From Acidobacteriota bacterium (GTDB lineage: Bacteria; Acidobacteriota; UBA6911): a stretch of DNA of 64,000 bases. The notes under the pieces are model-generated. The model worked only from the letters and a program-made list of their open reading frames with translations, did not search any database and was not told where the DNA came from. Shown in pieces: positions 5,753-39,735 of the stretch (positions within the stretch are counted from its first letter, which is position 1; every line of letters starts with the position of its first letter). A program made the translations under genes and the position numbers. The DNA is taken from the NCBI GenBank assembly GCA_963664705.1, contig OY761556.1, positions 3,456,001 to 3,520,000 on the forward strand, given 5' to 3'.

Positions 5753-7159
5753 CTAAGTCTGAAACGCTCGACAGAGGCCTTCCATCAGGGTTCGTTCCTG
5801 CGATGGGAAAATCGTGCGCAGATCTATGAGGAGCTTGTCTTCCTCCACTCGCAGGACGATTGGAGGATCCTGCGCCCGCAGTCTTGATTCCGCAAGGTTG
5901 GGTCTCGTGCGCTCGGATTCAACAGCCACCAGCGTGGTTGGAAGATGGCATTCCGGACAGGAACCCCCTCCGACCACCGAATCGCCGGGAATCAAGGTGA
6001 CGCGTACATCCCGCGGCAGCTGGCTTCTCAGCCTTCGGGAAAAGGCCACCGCCCGCCGGCGCAATTCCTCCTGCGTCATGGCAATCATCCGCACGACCGG
6101 AATCTCCTCCCATGCTCGGCCAAAGCGGTAGCTCTGCAGGGTAGCTTCCAGTGCCCCGTAAATCAGCTTCTCGACCCGATAAGTGCGCATCAGGGGATTC
6201 CGCCGTATTGGATCCACCAGCTTTTTTAAGCCCGCGATAATACCGGCCTGCGGGCCGCCAAGCAACTTGTCGCCACTGAAACAGACAAGATCGACTCCGG
6301 CGGCAATGCTCTCATGTACAAGCGGCTCATCGACAATCCCGTAAGGACGAAGATCGACCAGGCAACCGCTCCCGATATCCTCCACAAGCGGAATCCCCGA
6401 TTTGCGGGACAGTTCCACCATCGCGGGCAGGTCGGGCCTTTCGGTAAAGCCAACCATACGATAGTTGCTTGGATGGACGCGCAGCAGCAATGCCGTGTTG
6501 GGTCCTATTGCCTCGGCGTAATCCTGAATTCGGGACTTGTTTGTGGTCCCCACTTCACGCAGAACGGCCCCGCTGCGCAGCATAATATCGGGAATGCGGA
6601 ACGAGCCGCCGATCTCTACCAGTTCTCCCCGGGACACAATAACCTCTTTCCCCGACGCCAGTGCGTTCAGTATGAGGTAAACCGCAGCCGCATTATTGTT
6701 TACGACTGTGGCGGCTTCGCACTTGAGAACTTCCTGCAGCAGGGATTCAATCAATTTGTCCCGGTGGGATCTCTCTCCGGTCAGAATTTCGTATTCTAGG
6801 TTTGTATAATTTACGGAAAATGCCGATAAACTCTGTTGAGCGGCAGAAGAGAGAGGGGCACGTCCGAGATTGGTATGGAGAACAACGCCAGTTGCATTGA
6901 TAACCGTCCTCAAATTTGGCACAAGACGTTTTTTGAGAGCATCGATAAGGACGGATTCGACTTTTTCCGGGGAGATATCCTCGGCGGAGATATTGTCGTT
7001 GCGGATCAGGCTGCGCACGCCCTCAAGCGCTTTCTGAATTTCCGAGACAACAAATTCGCGGCTGGTGTGCTCGACCCAGGAAGCGATCGCGGGACGCAAA
7101 AGAAGCAGATCCACTGCCGGTATCTGTCTGAAAAGACTCTGCTGGTCGGGTTTTGTCAT
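5753..7159 (-). CDS. selA: L-seryl-tRNA(Sec) selenium transferase
   Basis: INATGVVLHTNLGRAPL, VNNNAAA, SRGELVEIGGSFRIPD, EVGTTN and PLP motif FSGDKLLGGPQAG. Confidence 0.97.
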   Translation of the reverse strand: MTKPDQQSLFRQIPAVDLLLLRPAIASWVEHTSREFVVSEIQKALEGVRSLIRNDNISAEDISPEKVESVLIDALKKRLVPNLRTVINATGVVLHTNLGRAPLSSAAQQSLSAFSVNYTNLEYEILTGERSHRDKLIESLLQEVLKCEAATVVNNNAAAVYLILNALASGKEVIVSRGELVEIGGSFRIPDIMLRSGAVLREVGTTNKSRIQDYAEAIGPNTALLLRVHPSNYRMVGFTERPDLPAMVELSRKSGIPLVEDIGSGCLVDLRPYGIVDEPLVHESIAAGVDLVCFSGDKLLGGPQAGIIAGLKKLVDPIRRNPLMRTYRVEKLIYGALEATLQSYRFGRAWEEIPVVRMIAMTQEELRRRAVAFSRRLRSQLPRDVRVTLIPGDSVVGGGSCPECHLPTTLVAVESERTRPNLAESRLRAQDPPIVLRVEEDKLLIDLRTIFPSQERTLMEGLCRAFQT

Positions 7160-33830: not shown

Positions 33831-33865
33831 GGAATCCGGATTCCAGATTTCGGATTCCAGATTCC
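33831..33865. repeat. Tandem heptamer repeat (RGATTCC-like, 5 copies)
   Basis: GGAATCC GGATTCC AGATTTC GGATTCC AGATTCC between convergent genes. Confidence 0.7.
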
Positions 33866-33873
33866 AGACAATT

Positions 33874-33892
33874 ACTGCCGCGACGCGGCAGC
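33874..33892 (-). promoter_or_regulatory. Putative bacterial SECIS hairpin
   Basis: Minus strand GCTGCCGC-GTC-GCGGCAGT; the stem starts after a 10-nt spacer from the in-frame UGA and the loop begins with GU. Confidence 0.7.
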
Positions 33893-33896
33893 CACT

Positions 33897-34073
33897 TTAG
33901 CATCAGCGGTGCGGACGGGAGTACTTTTCGTTCAGTCGGCTGACATAGAACTCGCCGGCGGTCTGTATCCGCACTCCAGGATGCTTCAGCCTTGCATGCT
34001 CGCAGTAGCGCGCATACTCGCCCTCTCCCATTATCTGCGCCAGCAGGTTCCACCATTTTCGTATCAGCTGCAT
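33897..34073 (-). CDS. CstA-associated YbdD/YjiX (DUF466) family selenoprotein, 58 aa, ending R-U-C
   Basis: MQLIRKWW...GEGEYARYCEH....HPG......EFY..R..EKY..P.R followed by TGA TGC TAA; family members end RCC; lies 7 nt downstream of cstA. Confidence 0.85.
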
Positions 34074-34080
34074 AGGCCCC

Positions 34081-36159
34081 CTATTCGTACGCCGTAACCC
34101 GGTACTCCGCTTCGCACAGAACCGGCACCTTGCGTCGGCTGAGGATAGCAAGCCACTCGCGGGCGCAATCAAGGAGAATCACCAGCACCATGATTGCAAA
34201 AAGTCCTGTCACCGCGGCATCCAGACGATTATTGAATATTTGCCTGTGAACCATGGCTACCTGATTTACAGGAACCTTCCCGGCCTCGACCAGATGGGTC
34301 AACCGATTGGCTTCAGCGATAAATCCTATCCGCGGATCCGGATGAAAGATCTTCTGAATTCCAGCGGTCTGAGTCGCCAGCACAAGCCATAGCATCGGGA
34401 TGATGGTAATCCAGGCATGCCGGGCCTTGTTCATTTTGATCAGGATGCTGGTAGCCACGCACAGCGCCACGACCGCCAGCAATTGGTTGGCGATCCCGAA
34501 CAAGGGCCAAAGGCTGTTTATGCCTCCCAGGGGATCCATCACCCCCTGGTAGAGGAAATAGCCCCAGCCGGACACAATGAGCAGGCTGGAAAGGAGAACG
34601 CTGGGGTACCAGCTTGTGCGTCCCATCGGTTTCCAGACGTGCCCGAGAAGATCCTGCAGCAGAAACCGGCCCACACGGCTTCCGGCATCCAGCACTGTAA
34701 GAATGAACAGCGCCTCAAACATGATGGCAAAGTGGTACCAGTAGGCAGTCAGAGCATTGCCTCCAAGCGTTTTGGCAAAGATATGGGCCATTCCCACCGC
34801 GAGCGAAGGGGCGCCGCCCGTGCGCGCAAACATGGTCTGTTCTCCGACGAGACTGGTCAGATGCTGCATATCCGCAGGCGTGACCGTATATCCCCACGAG
34901 GAAATCATGGCTGTAGCCGCCACCGGATCGGTACCGACAATTCCTGCCGGGCTGTTAATGGCAAAATAGATGCCCGGCTGCAGCACACAAGCCGCAATCA
35001 TGGCCATAATCCCGACGAATGATTCCATCAGCATTGAACCATATCCAATCAGGCGCGCCTGACTCTCTTTCATGATCAATTTGGGCGTTGTCCCGGAAGA
35101 GATAAGAGCATGGAAGCCGGAGACGGCGCCGCAGGCAATCGTGATAAAGGCAAACGGAAATATCTTTCCGGAAAAAACCGGGCCCGTGCCATCCACAAAC
35201 CGCGATAAAGCAGGCATGGCAAGAGTCGGGTGAACCACCAGTATCCCCAAGGCCAGCAGCAGTATTGTCCCGAGCTTGATGAAGGTGCTCAAATAATCCC
35301 GCGGCGCAAGGAGGAGCCAGACCGGCAGAACAGACGCGGCAAATCCGTAGGCGATAATCATCAATGCAAGATGTCTGGCATCAAACGTAAACATGGACGC
35401 CAGGGCTGGAACTCGGGCAACGTATTGCCCGCCGACGACGGCCGCAAGCACCAGGATAAATCCCAGCAATGATGTTTCCAGAACTTTGCCCGGACGCAGG
35501 TACCGCAGATACACTCCCATCAACAGGGCAATGGGAATGGTCATTGCAAGTGTAAAAGTTCCCCAGGGGCTTGATTTGAGCGCGTTGGTGATAACAAGCG
35601 CGATAACAGCAAGAAGGATGACAAGAATGGAGATGATAGCGCACAGGGCCGTTAGGCCGGCAATGGGCCCGACTTCCTCTTTGGCAATCTGTCCCAGCGA
35701 TTTTCCGTTTCGTCGCATGGAAGCAAACAGAATAACAAAATCCTGTACACATCCACCCAGAACGGCTCCGATGATCAGCCACAGCGTGCCCGGCAGATAG
35801 CCCAACTGTGCGGCTAACGTGGGGCCCACAAGCGGGCCAGGACCCGCGATAGCGGCAAAATGATGACCCAGGAGTATCCACTTATTCGTCGGAACGAAAT
35901 CGCGCCCGTCCTCCAGCCTTTCCGCGGGAGTGGCTCGCGTGTCATCCAGCTGCATGACCTTGAACGCAATGAAACGGCTGTAAAAGCGATAACCGACCAG
36001 ATAAACACACACCGAGGCAACGATGATCCACATTGCGTTGATCGGCTCGCGTCGGTTCAAGGCTACCGCACCGAGTGCGCTCGCGCCGAGCACGCTGATC
36101 ACAATCCATACGAGGATGCGAACACCCCTGCGCCAACTGTTCTTTGCGAAAGAACTCAT
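34081..36159 (-). CDS. cstA: Carbon starvation protein A family transporter
   Basis: [57 protein letters not shown]; ATG 36159 with AAGGAG RBS. Confidence 0.95.
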
Positions 36160-36415
36160 ACTTGCTCCTTCAGAAGATTTTGCCGTAAAAGCCAAGAGCC
36201 TAGTGCGTTCTTGTCCATATTTCAACCATTTGCAGTCAGAAGACGCCATTGCCCAGGCGATTTGTGGAATTTTTCGCCCGGGGGCATGGGAGCCGGCTAC
36301 AGATTTCCAAATGAATCTCTTGATCGCAAGATCGAATTGCCTATAAATAATAAAGGAGGGTTCCCTCCCAGAATTCTCCGTGATATTGTTTTTGCATCCC
36401 TCCTGGAAAAAGACT

Positions 36416-37075
36416 ATGGCCAAGACAGTCGCTCTTTACAGATTATCGATCGGACAAAAGTTGGTTTCAGCAATCACGGGGTTGTTTCTATGCGCGTTCC
36501 TCGTGGTGCACATTTCAGGGAATCTACTGCTATTCAAAAACGACGACGGCCTGGCATTCAATGCCTACGCCACCGCCAATGCTTCCAGCCTGCTGATCCG
36601 GACAATTGAGATAGGGCTTTTTGCGGGATTCTGTATCCATATTTTTTGGGGCATCCAGTTCTGGTTCTTCAACCACCGCGCGCGCCCGAAGAACTATGAA
36701 GTCCGTCATGCTTCGGAAAACAGTGATCTGTTCTCCCGGATCATGCTTTTGTCAGGCAGCCTCGTTCTGCTTTTCCTGGTAGTGCACCTGAAAAGCTTTT
36801 GGGTTCCCATGCGCTTTACAGGCGGCAAAGAGGTTTCGGATTACCTGATCGTGCAGACTGCATTCCAGAACCCTCTGTACGATGTTTTCTATATCGCCTG
36901 CCTGGCGCTGCTTGCATTCCATCTGCGCCAGGGATTCCAGTCGGCTTTTCAAACGCTTGGAATTCGCTCCATCTGGCGAATGGCCATTGAGACCGTCGCG
37001 GTCATCTTCTGGCTGTTTATACCGATTGGATTTGCAACCATGCCGCTGTATTTCCTTCTGAAGGGAGCTCGATGA
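36416..37075 (+). CDS. sdhC: Succinate dehydrogenase / fumarate reductase cytochrome b subunit (single-anchor type)
   Basis: [21 protein letters not shown], heme-ligand His residues, [14 protein letters not shown]; first gene of the operon. Confidence 0.9.
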
Positions 37076-38991
37076 CAATGGACCTGAATGCAAGAGTTCC
37101 GGAAGGCCCTATCGAGAAAAAATGGGATTCATACCGGTTCAACATGAAGCTGGTAAATCCCGCGAATAAACGAAAATATCACATCATCGTCGTAGGCACC
37201 GGGCTGGCAGGATCCTCGGCGGCAGCATCCCTGGCAGAGTTGGGATACCGGGTAACGGCGCTGTGCTATCACGAATCCCCGCGTCGCGCACACAGTATCG
37301 CCGCCCAGGGCGGAATCAATGCACCCAAAAACTATGCCAACGATGGAGACAGCGTTTTTCGCCTTTTCTATGACACGGTCAAAGGCGGCGACTATCGCTC
37401 CCGCGAGGCAAATGTCTACCGGCTGGCCCAGGTCAGCGGCAGCATCATTGATCAGTGCGTCGCCCAGGGCGTCCCCTTTGCCCGCGAGTATGGAGGCCTC
37501 CTCGAAACGCGTTCATTTGGAGGCACGCAGGTTTCCCGCACGTTCTATGCTCGCGGCCAGACCGGCCAGCAGCTGCTTTTGGGTGCATACCAGTCCCTCA
37601 GCCGACAGATTGCCCTGGGAAATGTGCAGCTATTGGGCCGGAGAGAAATGCTGGACCTCGTCGTCATCGATGGACAGGCGCGAGGCATTGTTATACGAAA
37701 TCTTCTGAACGGAAAAATCGAGTCGCTGGTCGGAGATGCTGTGGTTCTGGCTACAGGCGGCTATTCCAACGTATTTTATCTCTCGACCAACGCAAGAATG
37801 TCTAATGCGACCGCGATCTGGCGCGCCTATAAGCGAGGCGCCTATTTTGCGAATCCCTGCTTTACCCAGATTCACCCGACCTGCATTCCCCTTTCCAGTG
37901 AACACCAATCCAAACTCACATTGATGAGCGAGAGCCTTCGCAATGATGGTCGCATCTGGGTTCCCAAAGCCAAAGGCGACAAACGGAATCCCAGCCAGAT
38001 TCCGGAAGCCGACAGAGACTACTACCTGGAGCGGCTCTATCCATCCTTCGGCAACCTGGTACCACGCGATGTTGCCTCGCGCAGAGCGAAAGAGATGTGT
38101 GACAAAGGCCTGGGAGTCGGACCAACCGGAGTGGCGGTGTACCTGGATTTCCGCGATACGATTGCCCGCCATGGGAAATCCTGGATCGTGGAAAAATATG
38201 AAAACCTCTTCGACATGTATCAACAGATCACGGGAGAAAATGCCTTTGAATCACCCATGCGGATCTACCCGGCCCTTCACTACACGATGGGAGGCCTATG
38301 GGTGGACTACGGCCTCATGAGCTCGATCCCTGGATTGTTCGTGATCGGAGAAGCCAACTTCTCGGATCACGGTGCCAACAGACTGGGAGCGAGCGCCCTG
38401 ATGCAGGGGCTTGCCGACGGGTATTTCATCCTGCCGTATACGATAGGCGACTACCTGGCAACCGGCAGATTCCCGGCAGTCGATAGCGCACATGCCGCCT
38501 TTAGAGATGCGGAACAGGAGGTTGCCACTGCCATTCATAAACTGATGAATCTGCCCGGGAAGCGGGCGGTCGATGACTTCCATAAAGAACTCGGAAAAAT
38601 TTTATGGGAATACTGCGGCATGGCCCGGAATGCATCCGGCTTAAAAAAGGCACTCGACCTGATCCCGAAATTGCGAGAGGAATTCTGGCGCGATGTTCGG
38701 ATCCCGGGAAGTTCGGAAGATTTTAATCAGGAAGTTGAAAAAGCTCAACGCCTGGCCGACTTTCTGGAACTGGGACAACTTGTGGTCGAGGACGCGCTTC
38801 ATCGCGAGGAATCCTGCGGCGGGCATTTTCGCGAGGAACACCAAACCGATGAAAACGAAGCCAAACGGGATGATGAGCATTACGGCTATGTTGCGGCGTG
38901 GGAATTCCAGGGGACCGGGAACCCTCCCAGGCTGAACAAGGAACCGCTCGAGTTCGAATATGCAAAGCCTTCCCAAAGGAGCTATAAGTAA
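37072..38991 (+). CDS. sdhA: Succinate dehydrogenase / fumarate reductase flavoprotein
   Basis: [54 protein letters not shown]. Confidence 0.96.
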
Positions 38992-39735
38992 ATGATGCGT
39001 ATCACTCTCAGAATCTGGCGCCAGAAAGATGGGAAAAGCGAGGGGAAGCTGGTCAATTATGAACTCTCGAATGTCACACCCGACATGTCTTTCCTGGAAA
39101 TGATGGATCTTCTCAACCTCGAACTCGCACGCAAAGGAGAGGATACGATCGCTTTCGACAGCGACTGCCGTGAAGGCATCTGTGGAACCTGCTGCCTTCA
39201 GATCAACGGGAGGCCGCATGGACCGCTGCGCGGCGTCGCATCCTGTCAATTGCACATGCGCAGTTTTAAGGACGGCGATACCATTGTCGTGGAACCCTTC
39301 CGGGCAAAGGCGTTTCCGTTGATTAAAGACCTGGTCATCGATCGCACCGCCTTCGAACGCATCATTCAGTCCGGAGGTTACATCGCCGTTAAAACCGGCG
39401 GCACACCTGATGCCAACGCAATCCCAATTCCCAAGCTTGTCGGGGAGGCTGCCTTTGAATCCGCCGCCTGTATTGGCTGCGGCGCCTGCGTAGCTGCCTG
39501 CAAAAATGCCTCTGCCATGCTTTTTGTATCTTCCAAGGTCGCCCACCTCGGGATGCTCCCCCAGGGAAACGCGGAACGCAAGCAGCGCGTGGCGAATATG
39601 GTCGCCCAAATGGACGCGGAGGGATTTGGAGGCTGCTCCAATACCTATGCGTGCGAGGTGGAATGCCCTAAGCTCATTTCCGTGGATAACATTTCATATT
39701 TGAATCGCGAGCTTATCCGCGCGAAACTTTTCTGA
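38992..39735 (+). CDS. sdhB: Succinate dehydrogenase / fumarate reductase Fe-S subunit
   Basis: [33 protein letters not shown]. Confidence 0.96.

What the first reader, a model, noticed from the sequence alone, without database searches (positions are those of the whole stretch)
33874..34073. Hidden selenoprotein: cstA partner ends R-Sec-Cys with a SECIS lying past the true stop
Seen: the ORF track stops at TGA (33903-33905), but the next codons are TGC TAA. An 8-bp hairpin with a GUC loop follows, with the loop 18 nt after the UGA. Known: YbdD/YjiX (DUF466) proteins are encoded after cstA, end in RCC and include putative selenoproteins; bacterial SECIS loops typically start with G or GU a short distance downstream of the UGA. 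selA is at 5753-7159. Inference: the product is a 58-aa protein with a vicinal Sec-Cys C-terminus, possibly a redox or metal switch on the CstA transporter. Standard gene callers would truncate it.
Basis: partly seen in the sequence, partly recalled or inferred. Interest (0 to 1): 0.7.

Follow-up and report, generated by a model that had tools for sequence, protein, structure and literature searches.

The report
Swapped Sec-Cys tail on CstA partner
A tiny gene right behind a predicted pyruvate-transporter gene has a UGA 'stop' exactly where its relatives have a cysteine, followed by a small hairpin, so it likely makes a selenium-containing helper protein ending Sec-Cys, the mirror image of the Cys-Sec ending already predicted for this family.

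Summary
Observation confirmed. On the minus strand (34073-33897), 7 nt after cstA, a DUF466/YbdD-family gene (PF04328, 56.7 bits) ends Arg-TGA-Cys-TAA, with an 8-bp GUC-loop hairpin starting 18 nt after UGA. The TGA aligns with the first of two C-terminal Cys: 49 of 49 distinct relatives read at DNA level end Cys-Cys-stop, none with this hairpin at the main threshold. The hairpin matches the genome's own SECIS geometry (about 1% of ordinary TGA stops pass). The genome has two complete Sec machineries and at least 38 UGA-recoded genes. Five other database proteins stop at the same Arg and form one clade with this one; their DNA was not visible. Best reading (about 0.85): a 58-aa selenoprotein ending R-U-C, from a recent Cys-to-Sec change. 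DUF466 selenoproteins are published, but as K-C-U in Campylobacterales; I found no U-C form in print or in GTDB. Pyruvate-uptake accessory role is inferred from E. coli and Cupriavidus; the redox or metal switch is untested. The scan earlier noted a different Cys-Sec micro-gene behind cstA in another genome. New variant of a known kind.

The parts
33897..34073 (-). DUF466/YbdD-family small gene, 58 codons plus TAA if the TGA is read as Sec; ends R-U-C
   Evidence: (PF04328 56.7 bits, cut-off 25); dicodon score +5.9 in frame, negative in the other five frames
33903..33905 (-). in-frame TGA (codon 57) at the first of the two conserved C-terminal Cys; predicted Sec
33897..33902 (-). TGC (Cys58) and the TAA stop
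33874..33892 (-). SECIS-like hairpin, 8 pairs, GUC loop at 33884-33882, 18 nt after the UGA, in the 3' untranslated region; no U-run, so not terminator-like
34081..36159 (-). cstA-family transporter, 692 aa, long CstA/BtsT-like subtype; its TAG lies 7 nt before the small gene's ATG, with a G-run that could serve as ribosome-binding site
   Evidence: PF02554 836.8 bits; NF011590 907 bits, below its 1188 cut-off
5753..7159 (-). selA, selenocysteine synthase (one of two in the genome); supporting machinery, not part of the locus

Best explanation
The gene behind cstA is a DUF466/YbdD-family gene with a TGA at the first of its two terminal cysteine positions, and this TGA is likely read as selenocysteine, giving a predicted 58-residue protein ending Arg-Sec-Cys that likely serves as the accessory subunit of the CstA pyruvate importer. 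Mechanism: SelB with Sec-tRNA would bind the GUC-loop hairpin 18 nt downstream, Sec would be inserted, then Cys, then termination at TAA (inferred from sequence and known bacterial Sec decoding). Because the Sec is second to last, the SECIS lies in the 3' UTR, free of coding constraint, so a Cys codon could turn into UGA easily; this happened once, recently, in a small clade of a selenoprotein-rich genus (inferred from trees). The protein is predicted to be a two-helix hairpin with an amphipathic N-terminal helix, no membrane-spanning segment and a flexible tail; it would sit on the cytoplasmic face of CstA. The adjacent selenol-thiol pair would do what Cys-Cys does in YbdD, most likely as a reversible selenenylsulfide or two-atom metal clamp. 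Sec at either position of the pair (C-U in Campylobacterales, U-C here) suggests that the two side chains act together as a pair. The confidence given is for Sec insertion; accessory role about 0.75, pair chemistry about 0.4.
For: Cys/UGA pair: 25 of 25 true family-level GTDB relatives and 24 of 24 complete metagenome loci end C-C-stop; 127 of the best 150 distant cluster representatives end CC. The Cys codon and TAA after the TGA are intact; 0 of 1170 long genes ending in TGA are followed by Cys-stop. The hairpin meets the consensus given in PMC13188914. GU at offset 18 is the commonest position in the genome's own recoded genes (18 of 31 UGSC paralogues, 1 of 7 others), and one UGSC gene has the same GUC loop at 18. 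0 of 49 Cys-Cys relatives have such a hairpin at the main threshold (1 of 49 wide, 2 of 49 loose). Two each of selA, selB, selD and tRNA-Sec(UCA, G73). 38 UGA-recoded genes: 31 UGSC paralogues, formate dehydrogenase, selD, PDO, UshA-like, two OS_HP2-like, one MetE-like. Five further proteins (P0002, P0039, P0040, P0042, P0043) stop at the same Arg; the five full-length ones share 46-53 of 56 residues pairwise, and all six form one branch (100/98) among CC relatives, with the core motif intact. Function: all 21 family genomes with the long CstA subtype carry the gene, and 12 of 12 with only shorter or more distant CstA matches and no above-cut-off DUF466 hit lack it. Deleting ybdD cut E. coli pyruvate uptake to 20% (PMC5847655). 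DUF466 is cofit with cstA and needed for pyruvate use in C. basilensis (10.1101/072470).
Against: No expression, proteomic or labelling data. The DNA of the five truncated homologues was not seen, so their stop codon type, the following Cys and the hairpin are unverified. No second U-C gene was found at DNA level: none among 64 pattern matches over 185,579 GTDB genomes, none among 136 class or 400 phylum genomes. selA is present in 47 of 50 family relatives, yet all their genes keep Cys-Cys, so Sec is not needed for the function. Hairpins of this type follow about 1% of ordinary TGA stops, and 8 of 259 genome-wide TGA-Cys-stop strings pass, 7 of them with no sign of a gene in their printed flanks. 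Only about half of the positives pass my hairpin tests (11-20 of 38), and six of the seven non-UGSC positives and the UGSC seeds were first found by a hairpin screen, so that rate is partly circular. The AU test did not reject a shared origin with the K-C-stop group (p 0.274, 56 columns). PMC7730263 characterises CstA without mentioning ybdD.
Confidence: 0.85

Rival explanations
1. The TGA is a plain nonsense change (TGC to TGA) fixed in a small clade. The product is a 56-residue protein lacking the Cys-Cys tail, and the hairpin is an unrelated 3' stem between converging genes.
For: One base change suffices. No second U-C gene was seen at DNA level. Many relatives have some 3' hairpin. Databases list the clade as 56-aa proteins.
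Against: The CC tail is kept in 49 of 49 relatives read at DNA level. The Cys codon and TAA after the TGA are intact. A hairpin of this quality at this offset follows 0.6-0.9% of TGA stops and 0 of 49 Cys relatives. The clade's proteins keep the family core while differing by up to 18%.
Confidence: 0.1
2. The UGA is read through as Cys (selC*-type tRNA-Cys with UCA anticodon, possibly with the second SelB) or another residue, which restores a Cys-Cys-like tail without selenium.
For: The genome has a second selB and a second UCA tRNA; PMC5389517 describes second selB copies next to selC* tRNA-Cys.
Against: Both UCA tRNAs have a G73 discriminator, a long variable arm and an 8/5 fold, and score 70.6 bits on tRNA-Sec; selC* has U73. 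The second set comes with its own selA and selD.
Confidence: 0.04
3. The TGA is a sequencing or assembly error for TGC.
For: The genome is the only one with the TGA at DNA level among those read; all confirming runs come from one sample.
Against: Contigs of four runs (depth about 5-20) carry the TGA with no other letter. Five independent database proteins stop at the same residue.
Confidence: 0.01

Closest known systems
KCU-star / DUF466 selenoproteins of Campylobacter and Helicobacter (Cravedi et al. 2015, PMC4607533; NCBIfam NF033934)
   Same: Same Pfam family, Sec in the C-terminal dipeptide, SECIS downstream of the real stop, truncation by gene callers, prediction without experimental proof in the passages read.
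   Different: There Sec is the last residue (K-C-U-stop); here it is second to last (R-U-C-stop). The score is 33.7 against the NF033934 cut-off of 85, and identity to a Helicobacter member is 30%. The lineage is different (relatives are labelled Acidobacteriota).
E. coli YbdD and YjiX (DUF466, PF04328), partners of the pyruvate/H+ symporters CstA and BtsT
   Same: Family, position directly behind a long-subtype cstA, Y-x2-Y-x2-H-x4-H-P-x9-F core, C-terminal vicinal pair (R-C-C as stated in 10.1101/2022.07.06.499078).
   Different: First Cys replaced by UGA with a SECIS-like hairpin. Transport of pyruvate and dependence on the partner were not tested for this organism.
SaoC and other C-terminal Cys-Sec selenoproteins (10.1101/2022.07.06.499078); animal thioredoxin reductase tail as cited in PMC4607533
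   Same: Vicinal Cys/Sec pair at or near the C-terminus, SECIS beyond the coding region; SaoC also lies near a transporter.
   Different: No homology to DUF466 is reported for SaoC, and the order there is Cys-Sec.

Membership tests
DUF466 / YbdD-YjiX (PF04328 Sel_put) | Profile score above the curated cut-off | tested here: met
   56.7 bits vs 25, residues 2-58
DUF466 / YbdD-YjiX (PF04328 Sel_put) | Encoded directly downstream of a cstA-family transporter | tested here: met
   cstA TAG 7 nt before the ATG; same order in family relatives
DUF466 / YbdD-YjiX (PF04328 Sel_put) | C-terminal vicinal Cys pair (Cys or Sec) | tested here: met
   TGA-TGC-TAA aligns with C-C-stop of 49 of 49 relatives; met only if UGA is read as Sec
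DUF466 / YbdD-YjiX (PF04328 Sel_put) | Needed for pyruvate uptake by CstA, and binds CstA | not testable with these tools
   Needs genetics or biochemistry; the complex predictor was not available
KCU-star selenoproteins (NF033934) | Profile score above the cut-off of 85 | tested here: not met
   33.7 bits
KCU-star selenoproteins (NF033934) | Ending Lys-Cys-Sec-stop, Sec last | tested here: not met
   Ending is Arg-Sec-Cys-stop
Bacterial selenoprotein (UGA-decoded) | In-frame UGA aligned to a conserved Cys of homologues | tested here: met
Bacterial selenoprotein (UGA-decoded) | bSECIS consensus: 3-9 nt loop with G then G/U, stem 4-16 bp, 16-37 nt from UGA, MFE at most -7.5 | tested here: met
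   Own script of the criteria in PMC13188914; bSECISearch itself was not run
Bacterial selenoprotein (UGA-decoded) | selA, selB, selC, selD in the genome | tested here: met
   Two of each
Bacterial selenoprotein (UGA-decoded) | UGA and SECIS conserved in homologues from other organisms | tested here: inconclusive
   Five other proteins stop at the same residue but their DNA was not seen; no U-C gene found in GTDB
Bacterial selenoprotein (UGA-decoded) | Selenium shown in the protein | not testable with these tools
   Needs 75Se labelling or mass spectrometry
selC* tRNA-Cys(UCA) opal suppression | UCA tRNA with U73 discriminator and modified 8/4 fold | tested here: not met
   Both UCA tRNAs have G73 and an 8/5 fold

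The most novel reading that the evidence does not exclude
CstA partner peptides have gained selenocysteine more than once and at either position of their terminal Cys-Cys pair (C-U in Campylobacterales, U-C here), helped by SECIS elements that arise freely in the 3' UTR. The terminal pair is then a two-atom redox or metal sensor that gates pyruvate import, and the CC, CU and UC forms are a natural mutant series for finding out what DUF466 does to its transporter.
Probability: 0.35. Interest if true: 0.6.

Novelty: new variant of a known kind. Interest (0 to 1): 0.36.

Why it matters
It adds a mirror-image Sec-Cys form, and probably an independent recent Cys-to-Sec event, to a family where only Cys-Sec was described. 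That strengthens the case that both terminal residues of YbdD-type proteins are chemically active, and it gives a concrete experiment (CC vs CU vs UC vs truncated in a ybdD deletion) for a widespread accessory protein of unknown mechanism. It also corrects an annotation: the deposited protein lacks its last two residues. It does not define a new system.

Tried and rejected
Complex prediction of CstA with the small protein was not available, so binding is neither supported nor weakened. No RNA holder was listed for the locus; this says nothing on expression. Run X6 laid no reads, and X5 does not cover the TGA. No solved structure matched by sequence (best E 0.1) or by Foldseek (best E 4.2); VIA-align searches were not run on this two-helix model. 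A MAFFT alignment of ten UGA regions was uninformative and one row had wrong coordinates; it was not used. P0007 and P0018 (56 aa) looked like truncations but end in CC with shorter N-termini. Dropped before counting: L037 and L038 (below the PF04328 cut-off; L037 lies inside a long unrelated frame, L038 not parsed), L160 and L161 (below cut-off), L062 (contig ends before the tail), three duplicate 3' ends. L036 carries a frameshift but ends C-C-stop and was counted. Of 64 GTDB pattern matches, 22 were real DUF466 genes (21 C-C-stop, one Helicobacter K-C-TGA-TAA); the other 42 did not parse as DUF466 genes with a Cys ending. Terminator reading of the hairpin rejected: no U-run on either strand. 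A third Rfam tRNA-Sec hit over the cut-off is tRNA-Ser(TGA), and a third ARAGORN 'SeC' call is a 72-nt element with a mismatched acceptor stem. The small gene did not appear in my genome-wide screens, which needed long coding flanks. No alternative small partner was evident behind four shorter-subtype cstA genes of the genus. Supplements of the papers were not read; lists of DUF466 variants there or in RefSeq could already hold a U-C member.

Full report
Observation. The feature is on the minus strand. An ATG at 34073, 7 nt after the TAG of a 692-aa cstA-family gene (34081-36159), opens a frame that reaches TGA at 33905-33903, then TGC and TAA. Read with TGA as Sec it gives 58 residues ending R-H-R-U-C. 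The frame scores as coding under a dicodon model trained on the genome (+5.9; the other five frames score -0.4 to -15.5). The hairpin at 33892-33874 has 8 pairs and a GUC loop that starts 18 nt after the UGA, at -13.3 kcal/mol. Its seven inner pairs form with probability 0.90-1.00 in six of six contexts. It has no U-run and is not called as a terminator. Contigs from four runs of one sample carry the same letters at the TGA. The deposited protein from this contig is 56 aa and stops at the Arg.

Family and alignment. The protein scores 56.7 bits on PF04328 (cut-off 25) and 33.7 on NF033934 KCU-star (cut-off 85). In 137 genomes of the class, 28 had a PF04328 match, and only this genome had a stop inside it. 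After dropping two sub-threshold matches, 25 of 25 relatives end C-C-stop. So do 24 of 24 complete metagenome loci (25 found, one cut short) and 3 of 3 above-cut-off phylum-level loci outside the family. The TGA sits at the first Cys. Among the best 150 of 1371 distant cluster representatives, 127 end CC, 3 end in a single C (one a K-C type) and 20 have other, mostly extended, tails.

Is the TGA conserved? A protein search returned 38 relatives. With cluster members added, six proteins stop at the same Arg: the window's own and five others. The five full-length ones share 46-53 of 56 residues pairwise. With terminal Cys trimmed from all rows, the six form one branch (100/98) among Cys-Cys relatives, and they share three residues that are rare in the others (A27, L29, H55, scored on the five full-length ones). 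CstA proteins on contigs of the same lengths as those of P0043 and P0002 cluster with the window's CstA, one at 92% identity, so the clade probably spans more than one species (inference). I could not see the DNA of these five, so TGA is inferred as the one-step change from a Cys codon. A pattern scan of 185,579 GTDB genomes for the family core followed by TGA-TG gave 64 stretches and no U-C gene. The core pattern fits 46 of 46 near relatives, but the window's genome was not returned and divergent members would be missed. The form is therefore rare.

Sec machinery and the genome's own SECIS. The genome holds two selA, two selB, two selD (one with an in-frame TGA) and two tRNA-Sec with UCA anticodon, G73 and 8/5 fold. 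One set is scattered (selA in this window); the other is a selB-selA-selD-selC cluster at C1:3072596-3078309. I found 38 genes with an in-frame TGA in known (seleno)protein-type families or at a motif position: 31 UGSC-domain paralogues, formate dehydrogenase, selD, a protein disulfide oxidoreductase, a UshA-like protein, two OS_HP2/DUF1573-like proteins and a MetE-like protein (11 of them were checked against Pfam, and the MetE-like case rests on hairpin and coding flanks only). GU at offset 18 is their commonest loop position (18 of 31 UGSC, 1 of 7 others). With a test for a stem of at least 6 pairs, at most -7 kcal/mol and G at 17-19 nt, 11 of 38 positives, 7 of 1170 ordinary TGA stops, 79 of 18,746 Cys codons and 0 of 49 Cys-Cys relatives pass. 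With the published consensus restricted to 16-21 nt, 20 of 38 positives and 9 of 1170 stops pass. The positives were partly found by hairpin, so their pass rate is inflated. The hairpin alone is not proof; its coincidence with a UGA at a conserved Cys is what carries the case. selA is present in 47 of 50 family relatives, and their DUF466 genes stay Cys-Cys, which points to a recent local Cys-to-Sec change. Such conversions are described as common in PMC13188914 (passages).

How it likely works. Shown: sequence, alignment, hairpin, machinery, operon position. Also shown: all 21 family genomes with the long CstA subtype (E below 1e-240) carry the small gene, while 12 genomes whose CstA match is shorter or more distant lack it (kin are not independent; four further genomes with partial or distant CstA matches had a DUF466 match, one of them below the cut-off). 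From the literature: ybdD deletion lowers E. coli pyruvate uptake to 20% with no additive effect in the cstA ybdD double mutant, and direct binding was left untested (PMC5847655, passages). DUF466 is proposed as accessory to pyruvate transport from fitness data (10.1101/072470, one passage). CstA is a specific pyruvate/H+ symporter (PMC7730263, passages; ybdD is not mentioned). Predicted: two helices (2-30, 39-51) and a loose tail, pLDDT 73, modelled with Cys for Sec; an amphipathic N-terminal helix and no membrane-spanning segment. Inferred: SelB-dependent Sec insertion; docking on the cytoplasmic side of CstA; use of the adjacent selenol and thiol as a reversible selenenylsulfide or a metal clamp. 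That Sec can occupy either position argues for the pair acting together, but it does not separate redox from metal.

Comparison with what is known. PMC4607533 (passages and section 15) predicted DUF466 selenoproteins in Campylobacterales with Sec last, preceded by Cys and followed by TAA/TAG, with downstream SECIS elements. 10.1101/2022.07.06.499078 (passages) and PMC13188914 (passages) list the family only with a CU motif. Searches for a U-C form (listings, plus the passages named) found none; the library lacks most subscription papers and I read no supplements. This gene is a member of DUF466 and is not a member of KCU-star. An independent origin is the simplest reading, since the Sec position differs, identity is 64-83% to near Cys-Cys relatives against 30% to a Helicobacter member, and the clade nests among Cys-Cys forms. 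An AU test on 56 columns did not reject a shared branch (p 0.274). PMC5389517 (passages) was used to exclude a selC*-type tRNA. PMC1794560 (passages) gave background only. An earlier scan note (e1-7085988) describes a different Cys-Sec micro-gene behind cstA in another genome; I did not test it.

Verdict. Rivals: nonsense change 0.10, non-Sec read-through 0.04, error 0.01. It is a new variant of a known kind: a mirror-image Sec-Cys ending in a family already predicted to hold Cys-Sec selenoproteins. Interest 0.36.

Noticed in passing
G000:C1, 31 loci, e.g. TGA at 4763923(+), 6214814(-), 381682(-); three lie just beyond the window (3526227, 3543345, 3545351): Large expansion of about 550-640 aa UGSC-domain fusion genes with G-[HDG]-U-x-x-C motifs: 31 with in-frame TGA, 35 PF24696 matches in this genome. 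The expansion is genus-wide (29 of 29 other genomes, 8-52 matches each) and nearly absent from the other genera of the family (4 of 21, 1-2 matches). Earlier scan notes cover single copies.
   Followed up: partly
G000:C1:3072596-3078309 (L075): Second complete Sec set: selB-selA divergent from selD-tRNA-Sec. SelB is 34% and SelA 41% identical to the scattered copies. This SelD has a Cys-rich N-terminal and a long C-terminal extension. The cluster lies beside genes that look like corrinoid methyltransferase components (judged by eye from the translations). Several relatives also have two selA matches.
   Followed up: partly
G000:C1:4603871-4605022 (L069): Cobalamin-independent methionine-synthase-like gene (PF01717) with an in-frame TGA at codon 216 and a G-loop hairpin about 19 nt downstream; candidate selenoprotein, Cys homologues not checked.
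   Followed up: partly
window 33831-33871: Short repeat built on a 7-base unit forms a long imperfect hairpin between the converging HAD-phosphatase and DUF466 genes. An 11-base core occurs 129 times in the genome, and similar repeats occur in several genomes of the genus: a REP-like element.
   Followed up: partly
G000:C1:2597966-2598055 and 1625651-1625722: Two irregular tRNA-like elements: a 90-nt one with a long variable arm, a weak acceptor stem and an unassigned anticodon, and a 72-nt one with a mismatched acceptor stem that ARAGORN calls SeC.
   Followed up: no
L110:314-560: An uncultured Helicobacter DUF466 gene ending K-C-TGA-TAA with a weak G-loop hairpin 17 nt after the UGA: an example of the published K-C-U form.
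   Followed up: yes
L040 and L041, 3' of the DUF466 gene: Two Cys-Cys relatives end in TGA followed by a strong hairpin whose loop starts with G 16 nt later; probably an ordinary stop plus repeat hairpin, but a C-C-U extension is not excluded.
   Followed up: no
L151, L152, L153, L156: Shorter cstA subtypes in the same genus (31-47% identical to the window's CstA) lack the DUF466 gene, and no other small partner was evident downstream.
   Followed up: partly
window 36380-39735 (+): Three consecutive ORFs divergent from cstA that look like succinate dehydrogenase/fumarate reductase cytochrome b, flavoprotein and iron-sulfur subunits (judged from the translations; not searched).
   Followed up: no
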